A DNA stretch of 64,000 nt from Marsupella aquatica. Lineage: Eukaryota > Plantae > Marchantiophyta. A model generated the notes under the pieces. The model did not search any database. It was not told the DNA's origin and was given only the letters and a program-made list of their open reading frames with translations. The position numbers and the translations under genes were made by a program. The stretch spans positions 3,324,738 through 3,388,737 of the forward strand of contig OZ316896.1 of the NCBI GenBank assembly GCA_973895155.1. The letters are read 5' to 3'. Positions 1 through 50,837 of the stretch are shown here, in pieces (the stretch's first letter is position 1; each line of letters starts with the position of its first letter).

Positions 1-1
1 A

Positions 2-14067: not shown

Positions 14068-14072
14068 AAAGT

Positions 14073-14590: not shown

Positions 14591-15807
14591 TTGGAACTTG
14601 CACTAATAAATGGTTGCAAGGTAAAAGTAGCATGGGGGAGTAGAATGATCCTGATATGAAAATGTTATCATTAAAGCATCTCAAAGGCTGGAGTTAACAA
14701 GATAAGGCCCTCCCATACCTCCAATATTACAGGAACTGCCGTAAAAGTTAGGGAGTTAAACTTCAGTTACCAGGAAAGCCCATGGGCTGAACACTTAACC
14801 TGTAACTTTCCCACACCTGCACGGAAACTGTTACGTGTGTAGCTAGGAGAATCATTGAAACGGTCTTTGCATAGAGGATCTCAAATTGGAACATGCTGCT
14901 CCACTTGAGAGATTTCTGATTCCCATTGTTTGTCCCTGGCTCCGTGTCGTTAATTTAATCGTTATCGGGCGTAACTACATTACGTACTGTAGAAGGACAT
15001 AACTTTTCATAATGCGTAAAGTTTTCTACCTTGTTCAGATTAAAGTTTGAGGAAGCTTAGAAAAGAAGTCAACAATCCCCCCTCTGGTAATCACACATCA
15101 AAATGTGTTGCATTCATTGAACATCAAAATGTGGCTCTATTCATTGATTGAAAGAAAAAAAAACTAGGGTTATCACACTTTGCAGGGGTGTCATACATAG
15201 TATATGTCAGAATTACCGAGACCCCAACAATCCGCAAAGAACAACTTGACCCGAACGCTATGAGGAAGCTTCCAAAGCAGGCGGCAGGAGGAGTAAATGT
15301 CTTTGCAAAGTTATATTCATGGTGGTAATTCTAAAAGTCCAGCACGTTTTCAGGTTGTATAATTCTCCCATCTGGACCCCATCTGGAATCAAGGCCAGAT
15401 CGACCCCACTGCGATCTGAAAAGAAGTCAATCTGGACGAATTTGTGGCACTGACTGTTTCATGCATTTCCACTTTAATCACTCTATCACGGTACCACACA
15501 TTCAACTGTTTCATGGACGACGCGGAGGTGATCGAGATTCCTGACGATATCAGTAATTGATGAGGTAGCCTTTGATGAGCCTTTGCGGCATATGTTTTAC
15601 ATTTTTTATGAAACCCAATAACTCGGATCGCAGCAGCCTAGCTTCTCAATCACAGAAACTGGAAGATGTAAAGGGTTTGATGGCTAGCCAGGCAAGCTCG
15701 CTGGAAGCTAGCCTTGAGTTCTCCAATCCACGATCACACTGCTGTACCCTCAGCACGAATGAATGTCACCGCCCAAATAATTATGGAAGCAAGAGGACAG
15801 TGGCATT

Positions 15808-16064
15808 TGTTGTTTACCTCTTTTGTCGATCTCCTGTTATCTTGACACCTGTTTTAGTTTAGACTCTACGCTACCCCAGGCGCGCCCCCACTGGCTTTTC
15901 ACCTGGAGTTTTTTACTTTTCCCCTTCTGCCTTTTCCGGGGAAAAAATCTTGATGTCCATTTTGACATCTATTTGTTCTCTCTCTTGAATGAAAGCAGTA
16001 CGCATTATTTTCATTCCATCTTTTGTGCAAGAGTTTTTCCTGTCGATCACGACTGTCAATCACA
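15808..16064 (+). repeat. 5' LTR (257 bp)
   Basis: tgttgtttacctc...gactgtcaatcaca, matches 20520-20831. Confidence 0.95.
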
Positions 16065-16077
16065 GGTTATGGGCCAG
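16065..16077 (+). promoter_or_regulatory. Primer-binding site of half-tRNA-iMet type (GGTTATGGGCC)
   Basis: ggttatgggccag directly after the LTR is complementary to the anticodon arm of initiator tRNA-Met (GGCCCAUAACC), not to its 3' end (which would read TGGTATCAGAG). Confidence 0.8.
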
Positions 16078-16218
16078 TTGAAGTCTACAACACTCTTTCA
16101 CGACTAATCCGTGCATTCTAGTCAGAGTGATTTCCTGTCACTAAGCAGTAGTTCTTGCTGGTTTCCGCTAGTTTTTTCTGCATCTGGATCTAGTTTTGCG
16201 TCACTATTTTCATACACC

Positions 16219-19200
16219 ATGCCTTCCAATTTCACGGGAGGCTACAACATTCATTTGGTCCCCCACCTTCTAGGTAGTTCTAACTACAAATCTTGGAAAC
16301 GTAACATCAGTGCAACTATTCGTGCATCCGGTGTCTGGAAATACATCGATGGCACTGCCATTGCTCCTATCCAACGCCCTGCCGAACTTGATTATGTTTT
16401 CCAAGAACGACTTGATACTCATGATCTTAAGGAAGCGCAGGCCAGGAATATAATTCTTTCCACTTGTTCTGAAAGCATTCAGTTCTCCCTCGATCATGCT
16501 ACAACTGCTTAGGAATGCTGGACTAACCTGGCTGATGCCTTCGCTTCTGAAGGAATTATCCAGAAATTTGACGTTTGGGCACATTATGCTAGAATGCTTT
16601 ATAATGGAGAACCGATAGAAGAATACTGCAATACGTATCGATCAACATTGGAGCGTGTTCAGAGTGTCGGTATTAAGCTTGATGATGACATCAAACCTTT
16701 ACATTTTATAAGCAATGTAGAACGTCACTTTTCAAACTGGTCTTTCTCTAAGCGGGAGCAGATGCGCACTTCACCGAAGACACTTCCATCTCTTGCTGCT
16801 CTTATTCGTGACCTTACGGACGAATGTTGGCGATTGAATTTGGAACAGGACAATGCATTATCCTCTTCTGTTTTCCAACTCCAGACTACTTCTTCATTTC
16901 CTAATCCTCCAGTTGTTTCTCCGTCACCTACCGTATCCTCATCTTCCAAGAAACCTTTGAAATGTGATACCTATATTTTCTATAGCATTCCTGGTCATAG
17001 AGATGATCGTTGTTTTTACAAACACACACATATCAGGCCTGAAGGCTGGCAACCTCATCCCAGCATTTTAAAACGATTACAGACCCGTGTCCCTGCTAAT
17101 CATTCTATACTCAGTGTTGCCTCTTCCTCCGTTCCTTCTGTCTCTACTAATACTCCGACACATCTTCATGATGAAGAGACTGTGGATCTTTTCTCTGGCA
17201 ACCTCCATGTTGCATTTAATCATCAGTTAACCCCTGGTCTCCATCTTGACGTTTGGATTGTTGATTCGGGCGCTAGTCATCATTTTTGTAACAATCGCGC
17301 CAGTTTCACTACGTACACTCCTGATCCCCTTCCAATCAATACCGGTTCAGGATCTACTATTTCCCCTGGTCGAGGCTCAGTCATCCTTCAAATACAGCAA
17401 TCTGATGGTTCTTCCAAGGAAACAGAACTTAGTAATGTTCGATACATGCCATCCAGTTTTCTTAACACCATTTCTGAAGATCTGCTTGAGCAATGCTGTA
17501 TTTTTTGGAACGGTGAACTTCAGAAGTTCATTCACTCTCCTACCGGTGATGAATTTGCTACCATCAAGAAACATAATGGCCTGAAGACTTTCACGATTTT
17601 ACCAGTTACTCAGTTGGCAATGTCTTCTCATTCACAGTCTGATGATATCAATATTTGGCATCGAAGATTGGCACACCTTCATCCGGCTGCCATTCATACT
17701 CTTCTTCAACGTCTTCATATTACACTTTCTGATTCTACTCCATTTCGACACTGTGAAGTATGTGCTTTGGCCAAGTCTACTCGGATTATTTCATGATTTC
17801 CACACGCTCGTGCTACAGCCCCGTTTCAAAAGGTTCATTTCGATCTTTGCGGCAAAATTTCTACTCCTGGCATTGGTGACAAGCATTATTTTCTTGTCAT
17901 TACTAATGATTTCTCTCGTAACCGGTGGACCACGACTTTGACTTACAAGAATGAGGCATTGGCGCTGATTCAAAAGTTTTTTCAAATGGTAACTACTCAA
18001 TACAAATCTTCTATTCTTGAAGTCCATCTTGATAATGGTCTTGAATTTGGCGGCAATCAGCTAAAGGATTTTTTGGAACACCAAGGCGTACACATTTTCA
18101 ACTCTGCTCCCTATCATCACGAACAGAACGGGATTGCTAAACGCGCCATTGGAGTTATTTCTGCTAAGGCCCGAGCCATGATGATTGACTCTCATCTTCC
18201 CAAATTACTTTGGCCAGAAGCGTTTCTGACGGCAACATACCTTGCTAATCACTCACCTACTTCTGTTAATCCTCTATCTGAGCCTCCTGCTTCTCGCCTT
18301 GCTACCGTTTTACACCTTCCTTACGTTTTCCGTTTTGACCGGCTTCATGTTTTTGGTGCCCTTGCCTATGTTCATATTCCTCCTGAGACTCGTCTCCGTG
18401 GTGACAAATTTATTGCTCGGGCCAAAAAAGGTTACTTCGTTGGTTATGCCACGGGTCAAAATTTTCGTATCTGGTTTCCACATAATTCCTCCATTATTCA
18501 ATCCGCTTATGTGCATTTTGATGAAACATCTGAGCGTGATTCGTGTTTTCAAATTCCTAAGTCTACAGTTTCTTCTTCCCCTGATTATGTGGAGATTTTT
18601 GTCCCTTCTTTTGTTCCCCGACTTATTCGTCCGTCTGATAATCCTGACATTGGAACACCTCACCAATCACTTCTTCCCATTATTCCTCCTCCTCTTGGTA
18701 CTCCGCCACTTGAGGAACTACATGCAGATTTGCAGGCCACTCCCGTGATCACCCGTGTTTCTTCTCGATCCAATAAAGGTGTTCCTCCTGTTCGTTTTCG
18801 AGATACATCTGTTATCTCTCAGCCTTCTCAGTTACTTCTACATCAACACCTCCTTATAAACACTCCGCCAACTCTCCTTTACTCTTATCATAGTGCATTG
18901 TTTTCCACTTTTCCCTCAGATGTTCCCAACACTCACACTCAAGCTATGGCAAGGCCCGATGCTGCTCACTGGAGAGAAGCTGAATTACGAGAAATCAATC
19001 AGCTCCACAAACTCAAAGTGGCTCATCTAGTACCACTACCTGCTGGTGCTCGTCTGTTACCATCCCGATGGGTCTACAATCTTAAGCGTGACGGACTTTA
19101 CAAAGCACGTTTTGTTGTTCGAGGGGATAAGCAACGTCCTGGAATTGATTACGATTCTACTTTTGCATCTATTGTCCGGCCTGAGACTTTCCGCACTATT

Positions 19201-20486
19201 CTAGCACTAGTCACCATGCATAATTATGAGGCTCATAGCTTTGACGTAGTCACGGCTTTTATCTATGCCTTACTGAAGTCACCGACACCAATATACGTCA
19301 GGCCTCCACCTGGATACGAGACATATGATGCTAATGGTGCCATGCTTGTATGGCTACTTATTCAAGCTCTTTACGGTCTTCGACAATCTACTCGAATGTG
19401 GTATCATGAGATTGTGGAATATGCCGCTACTTTTGGTTTCATACCACTTCCTTCTGATCCCTGTGTCCTACAAAATTCTGTTGGGGAGCTAATCGTCCTT
19501 TGGGTTGATGATTTAATTTTTGTCTCACCAACCTTATCTGGAATCCATAACATTCGTGACAAGCTCACTGCTCGTTATGAACTCAGAGACCTTGGTGAGT
19601 TATCTGATTATCTGGGCATGACCATTACCCGAGATCGTTCCCATGGCACTCTACATTTGGGTCAAGCGCCTTACACTCTTAAGATCCTGCAACGATTTCA
19701 TCTTGATTCTAGTTTACCTCTTACTTCTCCAAGCACAGGTACTGATGATCTCCATCCACATCTCAAGCAACTGATAATGATAGGCAACGCTATCAATCTA
19801 TGATTGGCTCCTTGCTTTATCTTGCAGTCTGGACTCGTCCCGACATTGCTGAACGGTGTTCCAAGCTTGGGCAATTTGCTCATAATCCGGATTTGACTCA
19901 TGAAAGTGCACTTCGATCAGTTTTTCGATATCTCAATACCACTCGACAGCTGGGCCTCACTTTTGGTATCCACGATTTTTCTGGTTTGGAGATCCATTCT
20001 TTGGGATTTTCTGGATTTTCCGACGCTTCTTTTGCAGACAATATCTCAGATCGAAAATCCACTAGCGGCTATCTTTTTAAACTTGGCGATGGCTCTATTT
20101 CTTGGAAATCTCGAAAGCAACCGATAACTGCAACGAGTTCTACTGAATCTGAATACTTAGCTTATTCTCTGGCTTGTAAAGAAGCGGTGTGGCTGCGCCA
20201 GTTACTTTTCGACTTACGTTATACTCTGGCTGATGCCCAGCGTGTTATTCTCTATGGTGACAACCAACCAGCTATTTCTCTCACATACAATCCCGAGCAT
20301 CATTTCCGCACTAAGCACATTGGAGTTCAGTGGCATTACATTCGTGAGCAAGTCAAAGATGGTGTGATTGAGATGAAATACCTATCTACTGCTCTTATGC
20401 CCGCAGATGGTTTCACAAAGCCCCTCCAAGGGCTTAAATTTGCTAGATTCGTAGAGATGCTAGCTTTACAGTCTTTGCCTTCGTAG
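16219..20486 (+). pseudogene. Copia gag-pol polyprotein, disrupted
   Basis: Gag (NYKSWKRNI), decayed zinc knuckle, protease WIVDSGASHH, WHRRLAH/CEVC, integrase HFD..LDNGLEF..NGIAKR (catalytic E appears mutated to K), RT YKARFVVRG/LYGLRQS/WVDD, RNase H SDAS; in-frame stops at 16510 (TAG) and 17794 (TGA), frameshift near 19760. Confidence 0.95.
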
Positions 20487-20519
20487 CAGACATTCGTTTT
20501 TCAGAAGATCTGAGGGGTC

Positions 20520-20831
20520 TGTCGTTTACCTCTTTTGTCGATCTCCTGTTATCTTGACACCTGTTTTAGTTTAGACTCTACACTACCCCAGGCGCGCCCC
20601 CACTGGCTTTTCACCTGGAGTTTTTTACTTTTCCCCTTCTGCCTTTTCCGGGGAAAAAATCTTGATGTCCATTTTGACATCTATTTGTTCTCTCTCTTGA
20701 ATGAAAGCAGTACGCATTATTTTCATTCCATCTTTTGTGCAAGAGTCTCTCTTGAATGAAAGCAGTACGCATTATTTTCATTCCATCTTTTGTGCAAGAG
20801 TTTTTCCTGTCGATCACGACTGTCAATCGCA
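20520..20831 (+). repeat. 3' LTR (312 bp, includes a 55-bp internal tandem duplication)
   Basis: tctctcttgaatgaaagcagtacgcattattttcattccatcttttgtgcaagag is present twice here and once in the 5' LTR. Confidence 0.95.
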
Positions 20832-21483
20832 GCATTCTCACACTCTGACTGCTGCTCAACTTCCCAGTCCTAGTAATGAACCAACCTGCAAGCCAGTGAA
20901 CAACTTCTAGCAGAATGACCTCAGATGGACATAATCATAAGCAGTCCTTTCCCTAAACTACAGTAGTCGATAGATGCTGTGGAGGACGATAGATACGGAA
21001 GGTGGAAGGCGCACGGGGACATAGTTTGAGCCAATCCTACGATGACGAAATTCGGAGAACGTCCACGAGCTCTGAACAAAAATCCGCTCGCTGAAAGAAT
21101 GTTTTTTGTTCACCATTTGATTCGTTCACAGGGTTGTCCTGATGGCACGGCTGGGGTATGGTTTCTTGGCCAGGTGTGCCATCAGGGGTATGGTTTCTTG
21201 GCCAGGTGCTGGTGTTCACCACTCCCTCACTCCTGCGCAGAGTGGCTTTGAGCTGTTAAAAAGGAAAGAAAAATATGGACCATCAACGCTAACACACCAA
21301 CCACTATAATATATGATCCTTCCATTTCTTTCCTAGCATCTTCCTACGAAATGCAATCTGGGCGGGATTTGTACACTATCCCTAGCTGACCGGGTTTTCC
21401 CACTATCCTTCTATCCTGCAATCGGCTGTACTCTTGCTAATTCTTGCCGGGATTCCTGCCCAAATTTATGTCTTTCCAAGCTC

Positions 21484-21488
<5 letters not shown>

Positions 21489-21539
<51 letters not shown>
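21489..21539. repeat. (TC)n microsatellite, 8 bp longer than in copy 2
   Basis: Pure TC run; the inter-copy offset changes from 27174 to 27166 across it. Confidence 0.95.
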
Positions 21540-21544
<5 letters not shown>

Positions 21545-22696
21545 CTTACTCTTAAATTTAGTGCCCTGAAATTTCGTCTCTCTTAAATTCCACTTGCAAA
21601 TTCTTTGGTTCTGCACTTTGGAATCCAATTCAATCCTCTGCCAATTAGTTCCTCGATTGGCTGTCATGCATAGTCTCGCGTAGCTGCATTTTTCTTGTTG
21701 CTCGTGTTAACTGGCGCTTCTCTATCTGGTTTCTCCGTTATCACATGGTACTCTCTAAACCTCGAGTCTAGACTACGGCAGGAAACATAAATTTGCACGA
21801 ATCCAAAATAGTGAGATCATGAAATTGATCGAATTAGCTCTCTGAGTGAGCTAATATTACTTATAGAGACAACTTGATTGTCATGATGAGTGACATGAAA
21901 CGGACGTATTGTAGCGTGACGAGAAGAGCAAGATGGTGTAGAATCGCAAATACAGTGTCACTTAGTTGCGAACAGGAAAGAGCAATCATCGAGTACCCAT
22001 TACTGGATGAGTATTACAAAACACCCAGAAAATGCTCCCTGCTGCAAGGTCATGTAATGGAATGTCGAAGCTCGTGGAGCGCGAGTGAATCGAAGAACGG
22101 TGGATGATGAAAACGTGATTGCGTAACGAGGCGCATTTGAGGTGAACTCCTACAACATTGTCGAGCTTAAAGAATTCCTAAGACAAATACACCTGGTACG
22201 AGGAGGAGGGATCCAGCGAGCATTGCATGTAATGTGCCCAGATCCTACGGGATGACTGCGCAGGAGAGAAGAACCCACGAGGATGCACATAGCATTGAAT
22301 TAGAAAATGGACAGTGATATGTTTGTGTACAAGAAACTTTATTTTGCTTGATCTTTGAGTGAATAGGTCTGTTCACGAACGCCCTTTGAAGCAATTTTAG
22401 TCAGTGTGACCCAGATTGAGCGTTGATTTAAAGTGTGAGTCGAAATGCTAACAAGCAAAGTTTGCCCGGCCACAGAATTCAGATTTAAGAGAGACGAAAA
22501 TGTGGCAACCTGATAAAATCGAGTCTAGCACATTTGGTGAACTACTAATCCCATTGATTTTCGTACTACAATACACTTGGCACACACAGCACAAACTTGA
22601 TAAAGAAGAATGATCATACTTTTCAAAATCGGCGACAGAGCATGTACCAAATGTGTACAATAGTGCGCCTGTGAAAGAGACAAGTCGTTGCGCATC

Positions 22697-22754
22697 GGGC
22701 GAAACCGCTAGCATGTGTACGTAATGGGCGAATCCGCTAGCATGTGTACGTAAT
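22697..22754. repeat. 29-bp tandem duplication downstream of the short GTPase
   Basis: gggcgaa(a/t)ccgctagcatgtgtacgtaat x2. Confidence 0.85.
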
Positions 22755-22874
22755 GTAATAAGCCCTACTGTAATTCTACATGTACATCTACCGTATTCGA
22801 TGTGTTATCTTCTGTCTACCAGTCATATATGTAGAAATGACAAGAACCCCGCCTGTTAGCCATCTGCAACGACA

Positions 22875-23648
22875 TTAATTAAGGACATTAGAAAATGCGT
22901 CCATAACGTCGAACCATGAGCCTATCCTGGAAGCGACTCTCAACCAATTCGTTGGATCGATGCATTCTCTAATGATGCGGATGGCCAAAGCCATCAACTT
23001 CTCTGCTGTCGACTCTAGTTGTTCGTCGTTCATTGTAGCAATGTTGGGAACAGAGGGTTTGTTCCCCCTTCGCGCAAAATGTGCAATGAGCTTCTGTTCT
23101 AGTTCCTGTAACGACTGGTCTCTCGCCACTTTGTTTCTCCTCTCTCTCACTAATTTATCGCTGATAGGAGGAATGTTGACTGCAAATTTTTCATAATCGC
23201 CCATGTGGGGTGGAAGCAACGTTCTGTTCTCTTCGAGCCACTCATCGGTTGCATCGGTGAAGAGAACAACGAACGCGTCTTCAGCACCCTCGAATATTTT
23301 AGCGAACAGCGTCCAAATCACCTTATCCAGTTCAGTCATTCTACTCGCCTTTTGCACGAAGATTATGTGGGAGTACGCATCCCTGACCTGCTTGAGAAAG
23401 CTTTTCAACTCAAGTTGCGCTTCCTCATGCGACCTGGTTCCGGACTCTGCTTCTCCAAGACCTATCGTGTCTACGACAGTCCAACCCCTTCCGGATTTTG
23501 TGATGATCTCTGAAGTGCACCCTGTCGGCGCGTCGCTGGCTGGAAACACCATCGGCTGCTCGATTCCTCCTGTCACAAGGACATTGGCAACAGTGGATTT
23601 TCCAGCGCCTGTTCTTCCGAACAGGACCACTCTCCTTTCTGAAGCCAT
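22875..23648 (-). CDS. AIG1/GIMAP-like P-loop GTPase, single domain (257 aa)
   Basis: G1 GRTGAGKS, G2 GCT, G3 DTIG, HIIFVQKASR (conserved-box-like Arg), VVLFT; helical C-terminus ending in an amphipathic W/F-rich segment; intact ORF, identical protein in copy 2. Confidence 0.9.
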   Translation of the reverse strand: MASERRVVLFGRTGAGKSTVANVLVTGGIEQPMVFPASDAPTGCTSEIITKSGRGWTVVDTIGLGEAESGTRSHEEAQLELKSFLKQVRDAYSHIIFVQKASRMTELDKVIWTLFAKIFEGAEDAFVVLFTDATDEWLEENRTLLPPHMGDYEKFAVNIPPISDKLVRERRNKVARDQSLQELEQKLIAHFARRGNKPSVPNIATMNDEQLESTAEKLMALAIRIIRECIDPTNWLRVASRIGSWFDVMDAFSNVLN

Positions 23649-24995
23649 CGTGGTTCAAGCTGTCCTGAAGCAATTTGTAAGCTTCACAAGACTGAGGCAC
23701 TAGTTACTCCGACGAATGAAATTTGTAAGCTTCACAAGACTGAGGCACTAGTTACTCCGACGAATGAAATTTGTAAGCTTCTCATTCACATTAAGTTACT
23801 CCTACGAATGAAACCTAATGTATATATACATTAACTTTCGCAATCACAAACAGAGTGGACATCTTGGTCTTTCGCTGCTGTGATCCAAGTCAATATGGAG
23901 GTCAGTCCTCGCAGCTGTTCCGAGCCAGGGCTTTCCATCGCGCCCCTACTGTAGATGCTTTGGCTTGGACGCGGGAATAGACTTTCTACAGCTTGAGAGA
24001 ATAAACAGTACTCTGATTCCCATATTTGTTGCTCCGGTCAATTAGGACCTTTGAAAAAAAGGGCCCGAAGAATGTACCCCTACTGGAGAAGGAAGCTTCC
24101 AAGCACGCGGCTGGAGCACCGCTATGTTCGTGGAATCAAACATTTTTCTGATTCCCATAATGGGGTCTCTCCGCTCAATCTAACACGGAAAGGAAAAGAG
24201 CCCCCGAGCGGTGTACTACCAGAACCGTAGCCGGGAGCTTCCAAGCACGCGGCAGGAAGAGTAGATGCCATTACAAGTCTCACACGTTTTCAAATCGCCT
24301 TGTTTAGCTCACTATACCTTCGTCAGCTCCGCTCATGCTGTTTGTGTGTATTTCGTGGATTGATTCGTTGGTCGATCACGCCTTCAGTATTGAGTCTTGT
24401 CCAAGCAACTAACTCTCTGTGATTGGTGCGCGTTTAAATGTTCATTTTCTGGTTTTGTTCCTCGGTGCGGTGCAACGTGCTGTGTGAAGGCGTGGTGTAG
24501 CCTGCTTGAGTACGTTTTCATGGAGTAAGATTTTGGCCAGGACTATTCTCACATGTAAGTGCTGCTACACGATAGAGGCTACTAGCAATTGTCAGCGAGA
24601 TGAAAATTTCTGGATCCACTACACTGTTGGACATCCTCAAGTCTCGATCGCTGTTTTGAAGTAATTGCTAGTCGGAAAGTTGTTGAGACGGCATATCTGT
24701 TTAAATTTGCTCCTTGGTCAGAAGGATCGACAACACTGGGATCTTCGTCTAGGTGCGATATTTGAAATCAGCCATACGGTCAGCATCATACCCTATTGCC
24801 GGCTAGATCAATGTCTTCCCACTGTGAATCTTGAGCTAGTTAGTTGATTTGAAGAGACGCGAATGTCACATCTTTTTGTAAAGAATAATGTGAACTTTTA
24901 ATGGTTATTTCTTGCAGCTACTAGGAGGGGCAAACCAACTTAGCGAAGGACCTGAGCACGCCCCACACCTGTACTGTGGGGTGAATCAGCATGCC
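23649..24995. promoter_or_regulatory. Shared bidirectional promoter / 5' UTR region of the divergent GTPase pair
   Basis: Palindromic tgtatatataca at 23819-23830; W-box cores (TTGACY, minus strand) at 23888 and 24036; ACGCGG at ~23969, ~24105, ~24248; CGCGTT at 24429; probable 5' UTR intron gtaagt (24555) to ttgcag (24918). Confidence 0.55.
23672..23812. repeat. 48-bp tandem repeat (2 perfect + 1 degenerate units) just upstream of the short GTPase ATG
   Basis: aatttgtaagcttcacaagactgaggcactagttactccgacgaatga at 23672 and 23720, degenerate unit at 23768. Confidence 0.9.
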
Positions 24996-26435
24996 ATGGC
25001 CTTTGTACCGGTCATCCTGGTTGTCGGAGCTTATAGCAAGTACAAAGCTCATGTCTCAGAGGCCCTCGCCAAGCGTCATAGTGGAGGGGAAGTTCGAAGG
25101 ACTGAGGCAGGGGTCGTAAATTATAGGACGGAAGGGAGGCCAGTAGTTGTCGAATCCACATCCTGGAATGTTAACCGAAAGATCATGGAAGGAAGAAACT
25201 TGACAGAAATTGTAGATGATTGGATTTCATCAAATATCTTGAACGAGCTGTTTGGCAAGTTGGTTTCCGTTGTGTGTGTGATAGATTTAACTTCGCTTCA
25301 GCACAAATGTAATCTTTCGAAATCGAAATTGCATAGACGTATATATGCTTGGCTCACTCTGCTGGCTGATATTTTCCTCAATTGTCGAGCAACGATTACA
25401 ATAGTTGTGCGAATAAAGGGTAGCGAGAATGTCAGTACCAACACTACGAAGAATAGAATCAGAGAACTCCTTGTACAGGACGGATTTGAAGAGAGCAATA
25501 TTGTTTTTCGTCGGCAAGTACCGAAGGTTGGGGAGGACCCAGAGATCCCCCTGACGCTTTCCGTTTTGACACCTAGAGAAGAGCTACATATTTCCAACCG
25601 GCCTGTCAAACTGATTTTGTTCGGGAGGACGGGCAGCGGCAAGTCAACTCTTGCTCAGATGCTTACCCTGCAAAAGCTCGACTCTTGTTCCAACGCTTTT
25701 CCTTCCAACTCAGGTGTCGATGGAAAGAGCCTTGGAGTCAAACATGGTCAGGGTAGAGGCTGGTACGTTGTTGATACGCCAGGTCTAGGAAAACCGTCAG
25801 AAAAACTTAGCTCCACATCCACACATCATCTCGCGATGAAGATGTTTGAAGAGATCCAGTTGACCCACGGACTTTTCACTCATTTCATATACGTGAAAAA
25901 ACGAGATCGCTTTGACACGCTGGACGACGAGATCTGGAGGTTCTTTATGCAAATTTTTGGAGAACACATCAAAAGCAACTTCACTGTAGTGATTACTAAT
26001 TCAGGCCAGGCCTGGGTGGAAACCCACATGGATGCTTTGCGGGAGAGTTTCACCGGTTGCGAAAGTTTTCTCAGCGCCGACTTCCCGACGATCGAGCCCG
26101 ACGACAAAGAACTGGAGGAGGAAAACTGCAAGGTGCGAGTGGAATCTCTGAAGCAGCTCGAGGAAGGTCTTGCTATTCTAGGCAGACATCCGGTGGAATG
26201 TAACAAAACTAGACAGGTTTCTAAGACAACTGAGGGCCACGGTTTCCGTGAATCCGTCAGTTCGGTGAAAGATGCAACGAAACGTGCGGTAGGCAGAGCT
26301 CGAACAATTTCGGGGAAAGGTGCAACGAACCGTATGCGAGGCAGAGCTCTTTTTTCTACAGCCAAAGGCGTCGCAAATACTAATCCACGAGATGGGAACA
26401 AATGGAAGAGGATGTTCAAGAGTACTCGTCCCTAA
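24996..26435 (+). CDS. AIG1/GIMAP-like GTPase with N-terminal degenerate G-like domain and basic C-terminal tail (~479 aa)
   Basis: ATG in gccATGg context at 24996 (the ORF-track TTG start at 24912 overlaps a splice acceptor); G1 GRTGSGKS, G3 DTPG, HFIYVKKRDR, VVITN; K/R-rich tail; identical protein in copy 2. Confidence 0.88.
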   Translation: MAFVPVILVVGAYSKYKAHVSEALAKRHSGGEVRRTEAGVVNYRTEGRPVVVESTSWNVNRKIMEGRNLTEIVDDWISSNILNELFGKLVSVVCVIDLTSLQHKCNLSKSKLHRRIYAWLTLLADIFLNCRATITIVVRIKGSENVSTNTTKNRIRELLVQDGFEESNIVFRRQVPKVGEDPEIPLTLSVLTPREELHISNRPVKLILFGRTGSGKSTLAQMLTLQKLDSCSNAFPSNSGVDGKSLGVKHGQGRGWYVVDTPGLGKPSEKLSSTSTHHLAMKMFEEIQLTHGLFTHFIYVKKRDRFDTLDDEIWRFFMQIFGEHIKSNFTVVITNSGQAWVETHMDALRESFTGCESFLSADFPTIEPDDKELEEENCKVRVESLKQLEEGLAILGRHPVECNKTRQVSKTTEGHGFRESVSSVKDATKRAVGRARTISGKGATNRMRGRALFSTAKGVANTNPRDGNKWKRMFKSTRP

Positions 26436-28759
26436 AACGGTCCCAAGTAGTTGCATTTCTACCTATCAGGCCAATTCCCAAACGTAACTTCAAAAACAGT
26501 GAGGTCCTCGTGCCTGATTCTTGTAGTGAGTTACTGTCACAAATATTACATACCCCCGTAGTTTTAGGTTGTCGTCGATGTACCTGGGAATCCTTCAAAG
26601 GTCCCAGCTCGGAAGAGCCTTGTAATTAAGAGCACAAATTGGAGATTGTCAGCTGTGTTCCCCCTATCCTAGAGGTTTGGGGCCTTTCTGATTTTGTAGG
26701 GGCCGTGAGATTTGGTTCTACACAAATGCACACGAAAGGCACGGGTGGCAGATTGTGCACACAATAAAAATGTAGAGCTTGCAAAATGTCGGAATCTGAG
26801 AGGAATTGTAGATGTTTATCGATGTTTGAAGAGTCTCAGTCTCCTAAAAGTTAACAGCGTTTTATCTGAGTAACCAACTACTGGAAACGAAAATTGCCAT
26901 GACGGTCTTGAAAGGTAGCCAGGGCGCAAGTGATTGCCTCTCAAGGAGCTTTGCAAACGATGTTACGCGCATTAAAGTGCTGAATCCCGAGATTTTAACT
27001 CTTCAGCACGTTCAAGGGTCAGTGCCGGGACAGTGCAATTGTCGAGCTGGAAATGTAGTAGACCTTCAGGAAATTGAATGCCTCAAACAATGTCGACCTT
27101 CTGCGTGAAATCTGACAGTCTCATTCCCAAAAGTGCGTTAATGAACAAGAACCGTCTGGAACATCTATAGAATTAATTATGCCTTTTGCGCTTCGGAAAT
27201 TTCAGATTGCGCGCTGCTATAAGGAAAGCTCAGGTCATGGCAAAGAAGAGATTCAAGCCACGTGAACGCAATTAGTCATCCAGCTATTGGAGCCTCTCAA
27301 ACCACCTCATTCCTGAGCTTTCCCTTTTCCTTGACCAAAATGTTAGGAGGCCGGGTCAAAATGCTAGGAGACCAGGTTTGTACTTGTCCGATAAATGAGG
27401 GATCTGGACCCCTACATCTGACATGTGTCACACCCCATCATCCCGGCCCCCTACCCACACCCTACCCCAACCCGGCCCAACCCCAACCCAGCCCCTGCCC
27501 AGGCTTGTCCCAACAGGCTTGGGAATATAGGCAAATATACAACACCTCTTTTAGAGCCAACAAATGACAAGTTGTAGTGTTGCTCATGTAGGATAACTGC
27601 TTGTGTTCGGACAATACAACAACTTGTCAGTCAATTCAAACCCAGATCATAGACCAAAAATATGTGGTTCCCAAAAAAGTGACGGACTGGGTCACAGACC
27701 AAAAATATGTGGTTCTCACAAAAGTTCACCCAAAAATATGTTGTTCTCACAAAAGGTGACCGAGAGTAACTTTAGCTATCAATGTAGAGAGCAGACGTAC
27801 CGTTTTCACACAATATGCATGAGTGCCCTTCCAGAATGGTTGGGAGCCCTTCAAGAATTGTCAGAGACCATTCTAAATGGATTCTGAAATTGTGGGTGCC
27901 CAAATTCAAGTCAAGTGATTAAACTCAATTAGTCATATTGAAACCCCAGCACTACAGCAAGCCAGAACCAGTTTCCACCTGAATTCAGTTCCTCCTCCAT
28001 TGAGCCAAGCAGTCGTCCAAGCTGTAGCAACTTAACAAAGAACGGTACTCAAACAACCTTGATTAATTTGCAGGGATGGTTCCCTTCTCCAGGATGAGCT
28101 TAGTTTTGTTCTCTAACAGCTCAGTGAAATCAATGAGAATAAATGATGACTGTAGGTTAGTTTTGCTAGCTTGAATGTTGGACTTTTTCCTGCTTTCCAA
28201 GATGTGATTCTGAACCGTCCATTGGGAAGATACAGCTGCTCTTCACTTTGAGTAGCAGTTATTTGTTCAACAAAAAAAGCTAAGCCTAGCTTGATGAACC
28301 TTAATCTAAGTAGATGGGCTGCATCACAACCTTAAAACCTGATTGCATAACACATTTCAAACCCAAATTTAACAACTTGGCAAAAATAGCAGGGCTGGTG
28401 ATGTGAAATGATATTAAAGTTATGATTATCCATCCCAACAAGGGGTCTCCCTAATTGTTGTCAATTTTTTCGGTTCAAAAATGGTGTGTTTAAGTTACAA
28501 TAACAATCCTAAGGGTCTAGACCTTGGTGGTTGCACTACCCAGCATGGTTGCACTACCCAGTATATATTTATTAAGTGCTTGGGAGATCACTTCAATCTG
28601 CACTTTCTCACATGTGTTGTCATATTACACACACTCCTCATATGCTAAGCCCAGATACCACATGATTCACCTGGATAAGTGCAAGAAACTACTTTACATG
28701 TTTTCCTTGCTGTAACTGATTAAAGCACATGTGCTATTTTTATGTTTGGTGAGAGCTGA

Positions 28760-29476
28760 CTAATTGCAAGTATAAACAGTGCAAGTATAAACAGTGCATT
28801 CCCTAACTCTTGGGAATACCAAAGTTGAACCTGTGATCATCCGTCGAGGACCAATTTGGATTATCTCTTGCTCCGGTCCAAGTTTTCTTTGGAATACCTT
28901 AGATGATACAGGGATCATGGTTGGTATTCCAGAACAAATTCTAGAATCCTTCAAACCGTCCTAGGTTGTGAATCTCAAAGATGATCTATCCATGATCACC
29001 GTTGGTATTCCAGCACATCTTTCAACCTCCTCGGATCCTTGTTCCTTTGGGGGGAATACCAAATTTGATCCGGTGATCATCCTTTGCATTCCAATGCGAA
29101 TTCCTGGTGATTTTGAATCTGGTGTAGGTATTCCTATATCCAATGCTCTCATCACGGACGAGACTTGCTTTCTCTCTGTTCTAAATTGAACAAATGCTTC
29201 CAGGGATCCTAAAGGTGAGCCAATTTGACTTTGTTGACATGGAAAACTGAGTAGACGTCATTTATCTGGTTTAGTGGGTGAGACGTAATATGAAGAAATG
29301 TCTTTGTCACTTCCCTCTGAATCGGAGTCTTTAATGTCTACTTGGGGCTCCACTTGCTCAGAGGGTGGAAGTTTGGCTTGCAAATGAGAAGGAATAAATC
29401 TATGAACAACCCCGGGGGAGGATTGGATGGAACTAGCAATGCTTTCTTCTGACTCAGAGCTAGACATGGTTATCAT
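28760..29476 (-). pseudogene. Decayed low-complexity ORF with internal peptide repeats, probably TE-derived
   Basis: Three ORF-track fragments (29258-29476, 28961-29155, 28760-28954) are in one frame, separated by single TGA/TAG stops; repeats GIPT and RMITGS.LVFP. Confidence 0.45.
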
Positions 29477-31659
29477 AAACCCTATACAACCAAGGTTTCC
29501 CCATAGGATGTGCCTCTACGACTGCTTAAATACTACAAAATTTTCAAAATCTTGAGCGCCCTACAAATGAAAAATATGAAGGTCCTATGAAAGTGAAGCT
29601 CAAAATTTGATGATTGACCATGCTTTTATAGTTTTGGGGTTGTGTTTGCCACATGGCATAGCTTGATTGGTTTTCACTAAGAGACAAAATATAGAAATGA
29701 TCTGGTTTCCAGAATTTTGAGAGCATTATGATCCAGGTATCATGGTTGGGATTATACTCAATGTTTTGCTTCTAGTGACAAATGGACTGACCAGGTGTTT
29801 TGATAGGAGGTTTTTGTGTGTTCGCAATAATTATGATCCGTGTATCACGATTGTAATTCCTCTCAAGGTTTGGAGGATTGAAAAATAATTTAAAGCATGT
29901 TTTTGAAGATGTGTTTTGAGTTTGGGAACCCAATGATCCACTGATCACAGATTGAATTCCCCCCATTATTTTATGGGCTAGAAAATTATTTGTATTTTCA
30001 ATGGGTAGTTTTGTGTATTGGCAACAATCCATGATCCGTGGATCATGGTTGGGATTAGGTTTGATGGTTTGAATCGTGCAACAGTGTTGTTTAGTCGTGA
30101 GTCTTAGCTTAACTAGAAGTGAGTTAAAGTAACTGACTATGGATGTAACTGCACAGTTGCGTGGTAGTCCCTAAACCTTGGGTTCACATGACGATCAAAT
30201 TTGGAGTTTTGGGTATCTTTTAATTCATAAATTATAACTGTTATTTCACTTGAAGAATCCGAGCTCATCTGAGACCATAATATGTGACTCATTTTGGCTC
30301 ATGTGACTTCATTGTGACTGAACATATTGTGACCCAGGCTGTGACCCTTGGAGTTGCAAAAGTTGAGACCAAAAAATAGAAGTCACTATTGATACTGGAC
30401 ATTGCGACTTGCTTGATACCCATTTGTGATTGATCTGTGACTCCATTATGGAGTCTAGCCTTGTTGATACGTGACTGCAATGTGACTTTAATTAGTCACA
30501 GGGTAAATCATGTCCATGACTTACTTGCCCTTAAGAGTGACTAGCTTGTGATCTTTTAGTGTCACATAATAAACCCTAATAAACACAACCATTTGGGTCT
30601 CTACATAGTCATGTTTATAAGTAATAAGGTTGAGATGAAATTTAGTGATTGAAGTTGTAACCATGACTAATCCAATAATGGATTATAACAATTGTGTAAC
30701 ACTTCATAAGGAGAGATAGTCAATTCATGAGCACTCCACATTACAATACAAAAGAAAATTCATGTTCATCATCACTTTAGAAGTATAACATATTAAATAT
30801 ATAATAAATAAACTTTATCTCATTTTTTGTACGCGAAGTTAGCATGCTTTATATCCATTGCTCTTTCTCACAGACTTCACTACACCCCCTTGCAAACAAG
30901 AGCCGACCACAAGCTTGAAAGAAGAAAGTTCAATTTTCATAAACCACAAAACCCAGTATGTCAGTTAGAAACATCAAAATCCAGTATTTCAGCTAGCAAT
31001 TACAAGTTTCAAACTTCTGAAATAATATTTAGGGTATTTCAGACAAAAATTACAAGCCGTCTTAAACATACTGTACAATGGTCACATTAATGGTCTATTT
31101 CGACTAGGGCTTAAAAGTAGCTCTCATTGAGAGAGACTCTTCAATAGCATGTAGATTTAAATTTTTCTAAACTTTAGGCTCTCACTACCATTTCACAACC
31201 TTGCTGACGATCGTGTTGACTTGATGGTTCAAAACGTAGTTCTAATCATAACGTAGAATCATGGTGGATTAGCAAAAATGGATTGCAAGAACTTTATGTT
31301 GTGAGAAATCTCTGGAAATGATCCGTTTGAATTGGCTGAAATGGACGGCAGAGAGGTAGCATGGAGCGATGCTCCGGGCATGGATACGAGGAGGGCACTG
31401 TTCATTTGGGCGCGAGAGCATAGCAATCGGACAGACGTAGAAGCACCTTTATACTGACTGGGCAGCTGTGGTTTAGGTGTTGGACTGGCAAATGTCGAGG
31501 ATGGGTTCTCAGGTGCTACTTAGCCAATTTCAGGATGCCTTCTCCCTCCACATCCTACAACTTCACAGCTCCAAAAAGTGAAAAGGCAACTGTCCTATGT
31601 ATACACAATAAACATGTGGGAAGAGATGTGAACAACGCTTCCACTTGAAGCAAAGAGAA

Positions 31660-34461
31660 TCAGTCATCACTGGGACTGCTGGGAGAGGAATCCGCTTCTA
31701 GGAATCTGGTCATTTTTTTGAAAGCGGCTGCTGACTTTAATAGCCTTTTTCTCTCCAAGTGCTTCTCAATGTAACCAGCAAGATCAGCATTCAGCCCTCT
31801 GTCGTAGAGAAATATTTGGAAGTTATTCACCAACTCGTCCTTGCCATTCCTGCATCAAGAGGCGAGGACCACTAAAGATTCAAGTCCCAAAACTCATCCC
31901 TAAGTTCCCAGGCAAAATATGTCAATTTGAATGTACCCGCTTCAGACAGACTTTAGATAACATCAATGGCAGCAAGAAACCATTAATGGACGATGCCTAC
32001 CAAGACATCCTTAGATAAAATCATATTCACCTCTGCATATGAAAACTTTAGTTTGGGACTGTGAGGTAGATACCTGTGAGAATTATCAATCTAAACCCTC
32101 AAAATCTGATGAAATTCAGACAACAGTGGAGGCTCATACAAAGAAATTCAACCAAATATCAAGTGTACTTCATAAGGATTGACCCCTCAGAAGCACGGAT
32201 AGTATTTAATCATTGCCTCCACGATGTGTAACAAAGAGACGAGGTGACTTCATTTTATGTATTCCTCGTTTCATTTCAGTACTGCTGAATACCAAAAGAT
32301 AAGACGAACACCTATACCTACCGGTAGGATCTAAAATGGATCAACCAACTAAAGACTCATACAAAGAAATTCAACCAATATTGAGTATGCTTCATCAGGT
32401 TTGAACCCTCAGAAGCGCGGATAGGATGTAATCATCGTCCTCAGTCTCTCGAACCATCCTACATACGAGAATCAGCCAAGAGAGGACAACATAGCTAACA
32501 GACATCTCCGCGTCCGAGTAGCAAAGTATTCATCTCTCCTAAGCACACGTCCCTACCGTTCACTACCATCCTTCGCGTCAATGTCTTACTGTGTCATCCC
32601 ATGCATTGTTGATATTCACTAAAGCGCTGCTGGTTTGGTTTTTTGTTCAATCCGTCTGTTAACGCGCGCTTTTCAAAATGTGTACAACAGTGACCCTAAG
32701 CCTATCTCAGTTAATACATTGTCTGAATAGCGGTGTCAACTTGTTTTTTTTTATCGAAACGTCTTCAACTGTTGACTCCCCTATTAAAATATAAGCCATT
32801 AGCTATAATTCATTGAGCCATCGTAAACCGTTCTGTAAATGACTCAGAAACTAACGAATGGTAGACTGAGAAAACGATTACTAATTACCACGGAATGAGA
32901 CATCAATAGGATTGGGTGACAACTCATACGAAGAAATTCAACCAATGTGATGATATCTTCATCAGGTTTGACCCATCAGAAGCGTGGATACAATTTAATC
33001 ATTGCCTTCACAGTCTAGCCTCCAGACATGAAAATAAGATGCAGGTTGGTACAAGGTGAGGGAATGCTCTGGTCAAATTTAACCCACAAACAGGCATTTA
33101 TAGAGTGAACTTCAATCATCTATGGCCATACATTTGGTACCAAACTCACAGAACAATAACAAAGTCTTGTACACCTACTTCAAAATGTATGTGGAAGAGG
33201 CTTACGAGAAGTATGGGCGGTATATTGTCTGTTCCTTGTCTTCATATTGTAGATCAACTTGGTGAATGGCAAAACCATCCCAGTAACACTCGCATCTGAT
33301 TTCGAGAGTGGGAGATACGCCACCTTTCGTGATCAAAATCGTCAGCTGCAACATCTTCGTTCGACTCTCCGGGTCTTCACCGACTTCCGGCTTGCACTGA
33401 TAATTTTTTCTCACTAGTTGCAGAACACAAGACATAGTGATGTCTTCCAACCCATAAATTCTGGTCAACATCATCTCCATCTCTCCAGGTTCGTCCTTCA
33501 CAATTGTAAACGGTTTGGGTGGTTTCCTCTATGTGATGTTCTGCAAAACACTTCGACACGACATCTATGTCAAACATTTTATCCTACGATAAGGTTTCCA
33601 GACACTCTGGAAATAGCTCTAGACATGACAGAAAGCGGGTGACAATCTGCATGAGGTACAGCGGAAGCAGATGTGCCCAATGGGAAGCACATAACCAAAA
33701 AAAACCATATTGTCTCACAAGGCTTGCTCAAAGGGAAAGAAAAAAAGGTCTAGGATTGGCAGAATCAGGGAGGATTAATCACAACTAACCAAGATGTCAA
33801 GATCCTTCTGGCAACAATAGGCATGAACAAGCTTACGCTGCCTAAGTGCAAAGCAAGTATCACTTTGTAATATGTGCACTTTAAAATTAGGTTCTAGAAG
33901 AATGTCATCCACTGGACCTCAGTATAGTGCACACTTGGACAAACCAAGGAATAATCCCAAAAGAAACGATGTCTGGACACATAATGATCTTCAGCATCAG
34001 AAAAATCCAGCAATAGAACAATGCAGAAGAAAATTTGCCTACATCAACTTACAGATACAAGGCAGAACTTGGCAGGGAATACCGTAACTCACCAGCAATC
34101 GCTTCGTACAGTCTTTGACCTCGCAACGAAACACGTGCAGGAGACCCTCATCTCCTTTGTGCAAGCCAATATCTACACCTTTTACTGCACAAGAGGCAAA
34201 ATGTGACTTCTGGACACGCGACGGATACAGAAAACAATCCCTGGTTGCTGTTGTTGCTACTGCTGTGGGTCCATTCCACGCGAGTTTTGAAGTCTTTGAG
34301 CGCTATCTCCTCAATTGTTGTGGCAGCACGACCTTGTCACCCAATGGCTGAGTTATCACTGGCGACCACTCTTGAGAACCACTGGCTATTCCATGATTCC
34401 CCTGCCCAAAAGCCTGGCTGGAATTTCCACCACAACAACAAAGCCGAACTCCGATCCTCAT
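31660..34461 (-). pseudogene. MAM33 / mitochondrial glycoprotein (p32/C1QBP) family gene, 3 exons, two in-frame TAG stops
   Basis: Exon 1 34461-34093 (...GDEGLLHVFRCEVKDC, donor GTGAGT), exon 2 33540-33206 (PPKPFTIVKDEPGEMEMMLTR...LTILITKGGVSPTLEIRC...YRPYFS, donor GTAAG), exon 3 31849-31660 (DELVNNFQIFLYDRGLNADLAGYIEKHLERK); splice phases are compatible; TAG at 34303-34305 and 33529-33531. Confidence 0.8.
32132..33012. repeat. Three diverged ~90-bp repeats inside MAM33 intron 2
   Basis: ctcatac.aagaaattcaaccaa...cttcat.aggtttga.cc.tcagaagc..ggata...ttaatcat at ~32132, ~32356 and ~32922. Confidence 0.8.
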
Positions 34462-35672
34462 AGGGAGAACAGGGAGAACAAGGAGAACAGGGAGGCAACT
34501 CACAATGGAGCTAGGTAGCTTGTGATCGAGCAGCTCGCGATTGTAGCAACAACAGATTGAGCACATCGCGATTGTAGCAACAACAATTTGAGCAGTAGGC
34601 GATTGAACTCTAGGCAAATGAGCTCCAGGCGATTGGGTGCGTGATTGAGCAGGCAATTGTAACAACAGGCAGCAAGCGACTGAACTAAGCAGCATAAGGC
34701 AATGGACCTAGGTAGCTCACGAATTGAGCTGAGCAGCAATGTCACCCAACACCTTTCTCTTCTAGCAATGGAGCTCAAGAGTGCAAGCAATGTCACCCAG
34801 ACCCTAAACTCTTCACAACAATGGAGCTCAACAACGCAACAATGCAAAGCAACAATGGCGGGGGGAAAAATAGAATTGAGCAGCACACATTGGGGCTGGG
34901 CAATGTGTGGTGCGTCCCATGGCTCCCTAAACCCAAGAAACCCCCCAGCTCAAGCCGATTCCCGCAGGTTTCGTGCTTGGCGAGGCCGTTTCCGCGGCTT
35001 AGCGGCATGGGACGCTGCTAACCTTCTACTACTACTATTAACATTTTACACACATATACTGGACAGATCCTTCATCGGGTCATGAGATACGTAGCCGGCC
35101 TAATATAGGCCTTCCCCTGTCTTCCCCTGTCTTCCCCTCCGTCTTGTTAGATATGTTTGGATTCCGCCGCCGGAATGATCCCCAATAGGCTTGGTTAAGC
35201 CGCTAAGACCTCTCTCAGCTCGACACATCCAACTCTCACTCCCCTGCTTACTTTCCTTCCTTCTGTTGATGTGGGCACTCTTCACACAAGTTAATGCGAC
35301 ACACAAATAGCAAAATGACTCATTCTGACTGAGTCATACCATGCACTTGCCATACAAACAGTACATCTCATACACAAGTTCTGCGAACTAAGCCGTGAGG
35401 CCAACTCTATTCAGCTCTTAGGCATGAGGAAACATGAATATACACAAGGGTCACTGTATGACTAACCGAGAGCTTCTCGTACTACTTGATCCCAGCCCGG
35501 CTGGTGCAAACTAAAAACTTGCTAAAGAAGAGGCCCTGAGCTCCCCGCTGCCCAGGTACTTATCCTGGTAGTGGATCCGCCATTCTTTGCATCGTAAGCC
35601 TAATCTACTTAACAGTAATCTACTTGCCCGAATCTACCTATGTACAGCAAGGCAGGAGCACAAGTGTTGCTC

Positions 35673-50814: not shown

Positions 50815-50837
50815 CGTGGTTCAAGCTGTCCTGAAGC

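What the first reader, a model, noticed from the sequence alone, without database searches (positions are those of the whole stretch)
22875..26435. Head-to-head pair of AIG1/GIMAP-like GTPases, amplified as a unit: candidate two-component immune or membrane-remodelling module
Seen: two related but different GTPase genes (257 aa, minus strand; ~479 aa, plus strand) diverge from a shared 1.35-kb region. They share family signatures (LFGRTG.GKST.A..L, GRGW.VVDT.GLG, H.I.V.K..R...LD..IW..F..IF, W.E). They are the only clearly intact genes in a 27-kb unit otherwise full of dead TEs and pseudogenes, the pair is present twice, and a third diverged long-type paralogue lies at 2-580. Established: AIG1/IAN and GIMAP GTPases belong to the TRAFAC septin-related clade, occur in clusters, act in immunity, and are activated by dimerisation through a conserved-box arginine; head-to-head layout is typical of co-regulated sensor/executor NLR pairs in plants. 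Inference: the two proteins may form a co-expressed heteromeric unit, with the short protein's amphipathic tail (PTNWLRVASRIGSWFDVMDAF) and the long protein's polybasic tail binding membranes. I do not know of a described paired system of this kind in plants.
Basis: partly seen in the sequence, partly recalled or inferred. Interest (0 to 1): 0.8.

Follow-up and report, generated by a model that had tools for sequence, protein, structure and literature searches.

The report
Conserved liverwort GIMAP-like GTPase gene pair
Two back-to-back genes of what is likely a leafy liverwort encode distant GIMAP-like GTPases, a short one with a likely membrane-binding tail and a long one predicted to carry an extra dead GTPase domain; the same two types appear to be neighbours at three separate loci of another liverwort, so they likely work as a pair, possibly in defence.

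Summary
In detail: a 257-aa and a 479-aa AIG1-like GTPase diverge from 1,347 bp, in a real, very recent 27-kb duplication (99.84% identical; about twice the flank's contig depth). That duplication says little about selection.

New here: the long protein is predicted to be a pseudo-GTPase fused to a GTPase, an architecture shared with mosses. Both proteins belong to a remote AIG1-like group expanded in bryophytes, apart from canonical GIMAP-type domains. In Calypogeia fissa, 4 of 9 short-type genes lie within two accession numbers of a long-type gene, in three deeply diverged pair lineages, one orthologous to this pair. Orientation there is unknown, and 25 of 29 long genes have no known short neighbour. 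Both partners keep the GIMAP dimerisation arginine; this long lineage alone lost the switch-I threonine.

Best reading (0.45): a membrane-bound short GTPase regulated by a long partner, like GIMAP2/GIMAP7. Binding, co-expression and an immune role are untested. Head-to-head IAN duplicates (Arabidopsis) and Toc34/Toc159 are plant precedents. Earlier unchecked scan notes report similar pairs in fungi, on other DNA. Verdict: new variant of a known kind, interest 0.55.

The parts
22875..23648 (-). Short-type AIG1-like GTPase, 257 aa: G1 GRTGAGKST, switch-I T45, G3 DTIG, conserved-box R103, non-canonical G4, C-terminal amphipathic helices
   Evidence: orthologue C. fissa CAM6096879 at 63%
23649..24995 (.). 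Shared 1,347-bp upstream region: 48-bp tandem repeat at 23672-23784, palindromic TATA-like site at 23810-23839, about 135-142-bp spaced repeats at 23943-24257, splice-acceptor-like site ending at 24917 (likely 5'UTR intron of the long gene; inferred)
24996..25565 (+). Long protein residues 1-190: predicted pseudo-GTPase domain (G-domain fold, P-loop glycine lost) with the conserved W76-x3-N80 helix
25599..26225 (+). Long protein residues about 202-410: GIMAP/Toc-like G domain; G1 and G3 intact, R305 kept, switch-I Thr replaced by S245, G4 Asp replaced by G337
26211..26435 (+). Long protein basic tail (19 K/R, 4 D/E in 74 aa), low confidence in the model, not conserved across the family
50041..53601 (.). 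Second copy of the pair (short 50041-50814 minus, long 52162-53601 plus), identical to the first
14068..41242 (.). 27,175-bp unit repeated in tandem from 41243 (second copy runs off the window)
   Evidence: depth ratio about 1.9 in run X1
2..580 (+). 3' part of a third, long-type paralogue, orthologous to C. fissa CAM6096884 (five accessions from the C. fissa short orthologue)

Best explanation
The two genes sit head to head and likely form an old, repeatedly co-duplicated pair, in which a short GTPase likely held at a membrane by its C-terminal helices would be regulated by a long partner predicted to consist of a dead G domain fused to a GIMAP-like G domain. Shown: the layout, the motifs, separate short and long clades, and accession-level neighbourhood of the two types in three C. 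fissa lineages. Predicted: the fold of both long-protein domains. Inferred by analogy with GIMAP2/GIMAP7 and GIMAP6/GIMAP7: GTP-dependent G-domain to G-domain heterodimers through the conserved box, each partner offering its arginine in trans. The long partner of this lineage has lost the switch-I threonine and so would act mainly as regulator or scaffold, its pseudo-G domain serving as a rigid adaptor or decoy surface. A role in cell-autonomous defence or membrane quality control is the likeliest purpose, but it is the least supported step.
For: Linkage: C. fissa long CAM6096878 / short CAM6096879 (orthologues of this pair, 63% each, tree support 98-99); short CAM6116207 / long CAM6116209; long CAM6089378 / short CAM6089379 and its duplicate CAM6095793 / CAM6095794. 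Each pair shares one contig length. That is 4 of 9 short genes, or 3 of 7 counting near-identical duplicates once, against 0.2% per gene under random placement. The three pair lineages are old (short 45-59%, long 31-37% identical) and give the same rank order. A C. fissa gene model (CAM6098206-08) joins a long-type pseudo-G domain to a complete short GTPase, and its long part is closest to the long clade that partners that short clade. Pieces about 95-97% identical cover both genes and the intergenic region in run X5 (no single contig spans it). The conserved-box Arg is in 33 of 33 long rows and at least 9 of 10 short rows; the switch-I Thr is in 31 of 33 long rows, and the two exceptions are this protein and its C. 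fissa orthologue. N domain: model pLDDT 80, best matches are GTPases, Z 11.3 (rmsd 3.7, 154 aligned) to PH1320, Z 10.8 (3.7, 146) to GIMAP4, Z 10.0 (3.5, 160) to Toc33. C domain: Z 17.4 (3.5, 191) to GIMAP2. GIMAP homo- and heterodimer regulation, including silent partners, is in print (PMC9111091 passages). Short-type relatives are fused to a DUF676 hydrolase (C. fissa) and to a kinase, which suits a signalling or defence family.
Against: 25 of 29 long-type C. fissa accessions have no known short neighbour, and 5 of 9 short ones have no known long neighbour. My lists are incomplete, which cuts both ways. Paralogues of this family cluster anyway: 8 of 29 long accessions lie within two of another long one, so random placement is a lenient null. 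Orientation in C. fissa was not seen, and the chimeric gene model puts the two types on one strand. Moss short types were found next to other short types (Ceratodon M758_3G144000/144600; Sphagnum troendelagicum CAK9189583/84) with no long neighbour identified. The long partner may be decaying: 13 amino-acid-changing and 7 silent differences against the X5 copy (20 of 23 listed), ratio 0.53, not distinguishable from neutral (p 0.14); X5 keeps the canonical T245 and D337; the C. fissa orthologue model is cut at both ends (345 aa). Three lineages are too few for a co-phylogeny test.
Confidence: 0.45

Rival explanations
1. The layout is a by-product. One ancient inverted duplication put a short and a long gene side by side; later block duplications copied both, and each protein works alone, for example as a homodimer.
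For: Most long genes are unpaired (25 of 29) and family members cluster with their own type as well. Head-to-head IAN duplicates arise readily in Arabidopsis (PMC12845241). The 27-kb duplication shows that block copying happens here, junk included. Each type keeps its own arginine, so homodimers are possible.
Against: Adjacency survived in three lineages whose long partners are only 31-37% identical. The two types split before mosses and liverworts did (long types in Sphagnum and Physcomitrium). Only short inverted repeats (21 nt at 81%, 15 nt at 87%) lie between the genes, unlike fresh inverted duplicates.
Confidence: 0.33
2. The pair is co-regulated from a shared promoter region, but the proteins act in parallel in one pathway (for example a stress or pathogen response) without binding each other; the long protein's own pseudo-G domain regulates its G domain in cis.
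For: 1,347-bp shared region with a palindromic TATA-like site. Structural alignments place long residues about 75-85 where Toc34 has its N-terminal helix, so the pseudo-G domain is predicted to pack on its own G domain. A reverse architecture (G domain then degenerate G domain) also exists in the family (P0062, P0064, P0071, P0075).
Against: It does not explain why only the paired long lineage lost the switch-I Thr while keeping the arginine (two proteins only).
Confidence: 0.14
3. Sensor-executor pair in the style of paired NLRs: the long protein's pseudo-G domain is a decoy for a microbial effector, and its engagement releases the short protein to damage membranes or trigger cell death.
For: Head-to-head layout; about 30 diverged long paralogues against fewer short ones in C. 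fissa; many amino-acid-changing differences; short-type fusions to a hydrolase and a kinase; an LRR-looking remnant downstream (by eye only).
Against: No NB-ARC, TIR or LRR domain in either protein; no death-domain-like part; the excess of amino-acid changes is not significant.
Confidence: 0.08

Closest known systems
Vertebrate GIMAP partnerships: GIMAP2 (anchored, silent) with GIMAP7; GIMAP6 (no GTPase activity) with GIMAP7 (PMC9111091, passages read; Schwefel 2010 and 2013 seen only as cited there)
   Same: Closest solved folds (Z 17.4 GIMAP2); conserved-box arginine; clustered genes; one partner with a likely membrane tail and one with weakened catalytic motifs.
   Different: Only 16-22% identity in structural alignments; AIG1 score 33-40 bits against roughly 180-220 bits per domain for canonical ones; a long branch separates them. 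The fused N-terminal pseudo-G domain has no counterpart in these partnerships; GIMAP8 has three potential G domains (search listing only).
Plant IAN/AIG1 genes, including head-to-head duplicates such as AtIAN4/AtIAN5 (PMC12845241; parts 1-3 of 7 and passages read, supplements not seen)
   Same: AIG1-type domain, tandem clusters, head-to-head layout with a shared upstream region.
   Different: The Arabidopsis pairs are recent, similar duplicates of single-domain proteins; here the partners are 34% identical, differ in architecture and split before mosses and liverworts. That paper has no liverwort ('liverwort' and 'Marchantia' occur 0 times) and describes IAN proteins as AIG1-only.
Toc34/Toc33 with Toc159 (chloroplast import receptors)
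   Same: A short and a long AIG1-type GTPase working together in plants; similar fold (Z about 16).
   Different: No Toc159 M domain was detected; low sequence similarity (E 0.04 to Toc33); Toc genes are low-copy and conserved, whereas this family is expanded.
EngA/Der/YphC double GTPases
   Same: Two G domains in tandem; top Foldseek match of the whole model.
   Different: The match reflects domain order only (rmsd 11-19 A, 11-13% identity); here the first domain has lost its P-loop glycine and the second is GIMAP/Toc-like.

Membership tests
AIG1-type GTPases (PF04548) | Profile match above the curated cut-off | tested here: met
   40.4 and 33.3 bits, cut-off 27; matches cover only positions 1-132 of 212
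AIG1-type GTPases (PF04548) | G1 GxxxxGKS and G3 DxxG | tested here: met
   GRTGAGKST / DTIG and GRTGSGKST / DTPG
AIG1-type GTPases (PF04548) | Switch-I (G2) threonine | tested here: inconclusive
   Short: T45 present. Long: S245 here, N in the C. fissa orthologue, T in 31 of 33 long rows and in the X5 copy
AIG1-type GTPases (PF04548) | Conserved box with arginine between G3 and G4 (box named in PMC7053062 and PMC9111091; the arginine-finger role is recalled) | tested here: met
   R103 and R305 align with the GIMAP7 arginine; R305 in 33 of 33 rows
GIMAP/IAN proper | Canonical G4 (T-basic-x-acidic; consensus recalled) | tested here: not met
   Short TDAT, long TNSG; the family mostly has [TS]-x-A-D (Asp in 19 of 33 long rows)
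GIMAP/IAN proper | Falls inside the canonical GIMAP/IAN clade | tested here: inconclusive
   Seven high-scoring canonical AIG1 domains form a separate group on a long branch (support 100, quick tree, midpoint root). No named angiosperm IAN was in the tree.
GIMAP/IAN proper | G5/IAN motif and C-terminal coiled coil (PMC7053062) | not tested
   No coiled-coil predictor was run; the model shows a helix at 371-395 and an unreliable tail
GIMAP/IAN proper | GTP-dependent homo- or heterodimerisation controlling hydrolysis | not testable with these tools
   Needs biochemistry
Toc34/Toc159 | Toc159-type C-terminal membrane domain or Toc-level sequence similarity | tested here: not met
   No such Pfam family at E 0.1; Toc33 only at E 0.04-0.17
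Paired NLR sensor/executor | NB-ARC/STAND plus LRR architecture | tested here: not met
   No NB-ARC, TIR or LRR hit; only P-loop-level hits below cut-off to nSTAND3 and NACHT
EngA/Der double GTPases | Two intact G domains | tested here: not met
   N domain has no glycine before the P-loop lysine in 33 of 33 rows and lacks DxxG

The most novel reading that the evidence does not exclude
Bryophytes carry an undescribed two-component GTPase defence module: a membrane-bound short GTPase and a linked pseudoGTPase-GTPase sensor or regulator, inherited and diversified as cognate pairs. It would be the plant counterpart of GIMAP heterodimers, and possibly of the paired AIG1-like GTPases that earlier scan notes report in fungi.
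Probability: 0.25. Interest if true: 0.8.

Novelty: new variant of a known kind. Interest (0 to 1): 0.55.

Why it matters
How AIG1/GIMAP GTPases act is still unclear, and the most recent plant survey I found lists only Toc34, Toc159 and single-domain IAN proteins, with no liverworts. This locus points to a further, bryophyte-expanded group with a predicted built-in pseudo-GTPase and with natural short-long gene pairs. Three cognate pairs in one genome give a ready test of partner specificity: matched against mismatched pairs, arginine mutants, and removal of the pseudo-G domain.

Tried and rejected
Complex prediction of long 1-410 with the short protein: score 0.29, mark 0.34, verdict 'no answer'; alignments were not used and controls were not folded; it is not evidence either way. 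Sequencing runs: no RNA holder listed among 5 runs, so expression was not examined. No whole genome is held, so no genome-wide orientation test was possible. The metagenome scan gave 1 confirmed locus from 429 pattern matches, a 1,282-bp contig with a short-type gene only, too short to show a neighbour. An early guess of 4-5 copies, from low-depth paralogue contigs, was dropped once the flank gave depth 47-51. A frameshifted origin of the long tail was not supported: family matches continue in the same frame and other frames gave no convincing match. No further family genes were found in the window by six-frame profile search. Moss linkage: 7 of the 10 look-ups were moss-type long proteins or Sphagnum-type short proteins, and they gave no short-long neighbours in one species; several have no accession. 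Horizontal origin from fungi: Atlas neighbours are mostly fungal and oomycete clusters and one near relative carries a Crinkler N-terminal domain, but the tree lacks names and a root, so this stays a lead. Literature searches (listings and abstract starts) showed no paper on a bryophyte pseudoGTPase-GTPase family or on such pairs; the library lacks most subscription journals. Scan look-ups by sequence and by place found nothing.
Full report
OBSERVATION. An identical pair lies at 50041-53601. They share 34% identity over 189 residues and pass the Pfam AIG1 cut-off weakly (40.4 and 33.3 bits). The unit 14068-41242 repeats at 99.84%. In run X1, contigs over the pair have depth 88.7-95.6 and those over 1-5338 have 46.9-50.9; in X3 the main contigs give 141-171 against 68-82. 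This fits two real copies, though the tool warns that depth is not copy number. A diverged version in X3 has depth 46-55 at the pair and 41-49 at the flank, so it looks unduplicated. The duplication is therefore recent, includes a broken copia element and a MAM33-like pseudogene, and is weak evidence for selection on the pair.

ORIGIN. The closest named relatives of both proteins are from the leafy liverwort Calypogeia fissa (63% each), so the window is likely from a leafy liverwort. A profile search over 1.84 billion representatives gave 99 proteins at E 1e-30 or better, of 2,946 at E 0.001. Named members come from Sphagnum, Physcomitrium, Ceratodon and Riccia. In a quick tree of 131 G domains, chosen from 178 proteins by length and score, the window's short type falls in a 17-row clade (99) and the long types in a 47-row clade (99). 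A second quick tree of 55 chosen rows puts 16 long types, mosses included, in one group (92) and seven canonical AIG1 domains on a long separate branch (100). Those canonical proteins score roughly 180-220 bits per domain (whole-protein score divided by domain count). No named angiosperm IAN was available, so the relation to IAN is not settled.

ANATOMY OF THE LONG PROTEIN. The full model (pLDDT 68.8, pTM 0.64) shows two alpha/beta domains and an unreliable tail from residue 403. Residues 202-416 match GIMAP2 at Z 17.4 (rmsd 3.5, 191 aligned). Residues 1-190, which have no Pfam hit, were folded alone (pLDDT 80.2, pTM 0.80). Against 48,161 representative chains the best matches are GTPases: PH1320 Z 11.3, GIMAP4 Z 10.8, Toc33 Z 10.0; some non-GTPase alpha/beta folds follow at Z 9.4. 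Foldseek and the Atlas (AIG1/MMR_HSR1 clusters, score 0.93, 159 shared features, below the 170 typical of same-family hits) agree. Across 33 long rows this domain keeps the first P-loop glycine (29), the lysine (25) and a G3-like D/E-T (Asp 20, Thr 29), never the glycine before the lysine, and has invariant W76 and N80 (32). I read it as a pseudo-GTPase. Toc34 alignments begin at model residue 75-80, which suggests this conserved helix packs on the second domain (inferred). In the second domain G1, G3 and the conserved-box arginine are invariant. The switch-I threonine is present in 31 of 33 rows and missing only here and in the C. fissa orthologue. G4 is G337 here, while the X5 copy has T245 and D337. 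The basic tail is lineage-specific.

ANATOMY OF THE SHORT PROTEIN. One G domain with G1, T45, G3 and R103, followed by helices with high hydrophobic moment (0.60 here; 0.40-0.73 in 14 short types). Several relatives end in a fairly hydrophobic stretch (mean up to 0.75), although this protein's is weak (0.29). Membrane binding is inferred. I did not fold it alone.

IS THE PAIR CONSERVED? With no genome held, I used C. fissa accession numbers, assuming they follow gene order; paired genes do share a contig length. Long CAM6096878 and short CAM6096879 are the orthologues of this pair, and CAM6096884 is the orthologue of the 2-580 gene, which gives the window's order reversed. Two more lineages are neighbours: CAM6116207/09, and CAM6089378/79 with its duplicate CAM6095793/94. 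Of 9 short-type accessions, 4 have a long one within two numbers; the other five are 38 to 5,940 away. Of 29 long accessions, 4 have a short neighbour. Left out of these counts: the three chimeric accessions, the P0193 cluster and representatives I could not look up. Random placement gives p 3e-9 (4e-7 counting duplicates once), but family members cluster anyway (8 of 29 long accessions lie within two of another; some may be isoforms). The three lineages are old (short 45-59%, long 31-37%). The model CAM6098206-08 fuses a long-type pseudo-G domain and P-loop remnant to a whole short GTPase; it may be a real chimera or an annotation join. Orientation in C. fissa is unknown, and no short-long neighbours were seen in mosses.

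SELECTION. Against the X5 contig over 25415-26210, the 20 listed of 23 differences are 13 amino-acid-changing and 7 silent, ratio 0.53, p 0.14 against neutrality (two listed sites were removed as belonging to other contigs). This neither shows constraint nor excludes decay or diversification.

MECHANISM. GIMAPs dimerise through the G interface in a GTP-dependent way; GIMAP7 activates silent GIMAP2, and GIMAP6, which has no activity, inhibits GIMAP7 (PMC9111091, passages). The pair has the parts for such a relation: a likely membrane-bound short GTPase and a long partner with the arginine kept and the switch-I threonine lost. I put a functional, linked heterodimeric pair at 0.45, a by-product of duplication at 0.33, co-regulation without binding at 0.14 and a decoy-executor pair at 0.08. 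The defence role rests on family knowledge and on fusions of short types to a DUF676 hydrolase and a kinase; that liverwort NLRs use hydrolase N-termini is recalled, not tested.

COMPARISON AND NOVELTY. PMC12845241 (parts 1-3 of 7 and passages) sorts plant AIG1-like proteins into Toc34, Toc159 and IAN, reports head-to-head IAN duplicates in Arabidopsis, and includes no liverwort. Its supplements, not seen, may show whether any of its seven moss genes belongs to this family. PMC7053062 and PMC8857920 (passages) define the AIG1 motifs, and the first notes dual-AIG1 proteins in snails. PMC12851517 (one passage) mentions an egg-expressed moss AIG1-domain gene of unknown subfamily. Ten searches found no description of the pseudoGTPase-GTPase architecture or of these pairs (listed under Tried and rejected). 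Earlier scan notes report head-to-head AIG1-like pairs in fungi and Giardia; they are unchecked leads on other DNA, with no sequence look-alike to this long protein. Verdict: new variant of a known kind; interest 0.55.

Noticed in passing
window:15808-20832 (copy 42982-48006): Ty1/copia LTR retrotransposon split over several ORFs, LTRs about 98% identical, flanked by a 5-bp target-site duplication; it carries many of the differences between the two unit copies.
   Followed up: partly
window:13066-14067: Ty3/gypsy RT-RNaseH fragment just left of the duplicated unit's boundary at 14068.
   Followed up: no
window:5402-5818 (-): Intact STIG1-like secreted cysteine-rich protein gene (Pfam Stig1, E 2.6e-17) between the third paralogue and the pair; higher summed depth suggests a multicopy family.
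   Followed up: partly
window:31663-33660 (-): MAM33-like mitochondrial glycoprotein gene with apparent introns, an in-frame stop and a frame change near the 5' end: likely a pseudogene.
   Followed up: partly
window:26800-27300 (-): Stop-riddled, LRR-looking remnant just downstream of the long gene, with matches to several other contigs at 26979-27017; judged by eye, not confirmed by a profile.
   Followed up: partly
window:24235-24706: Parts of the intergenic region match another, higher-depth contig (depth 130 in X1) at about 80% identity: a repeat or a related upstream region elsewhere.
   Followed up: no
proteins P0062, P0064, P0071, P0072, P0075, P0124: A sister clade with the reverse order: intact G domain first, degenerate G domain second, then a further domain (586-667 aa).
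   Followed up: no
proteins P0087 (C. fissa CAM6103689), P0197, P0196 (Ceratodon KC19_1G154600): Short-type G domains fused to a DUF676 hydrolase, or to a helical region plus protein kinase.
   Followed up: partly
C. fissa CAM6120310/12/14 and CAM6121356/58/60: Long-type genes at every second accession number; the alternating records are unknown and could be partners or isoforms.
   Followed up: no
window:7689-8084 / 10452-10864 and 9646-9878 / 10194-10392: Degenerate direct and inverted repeats, probably remains of a transposable element.
   Followed up: no
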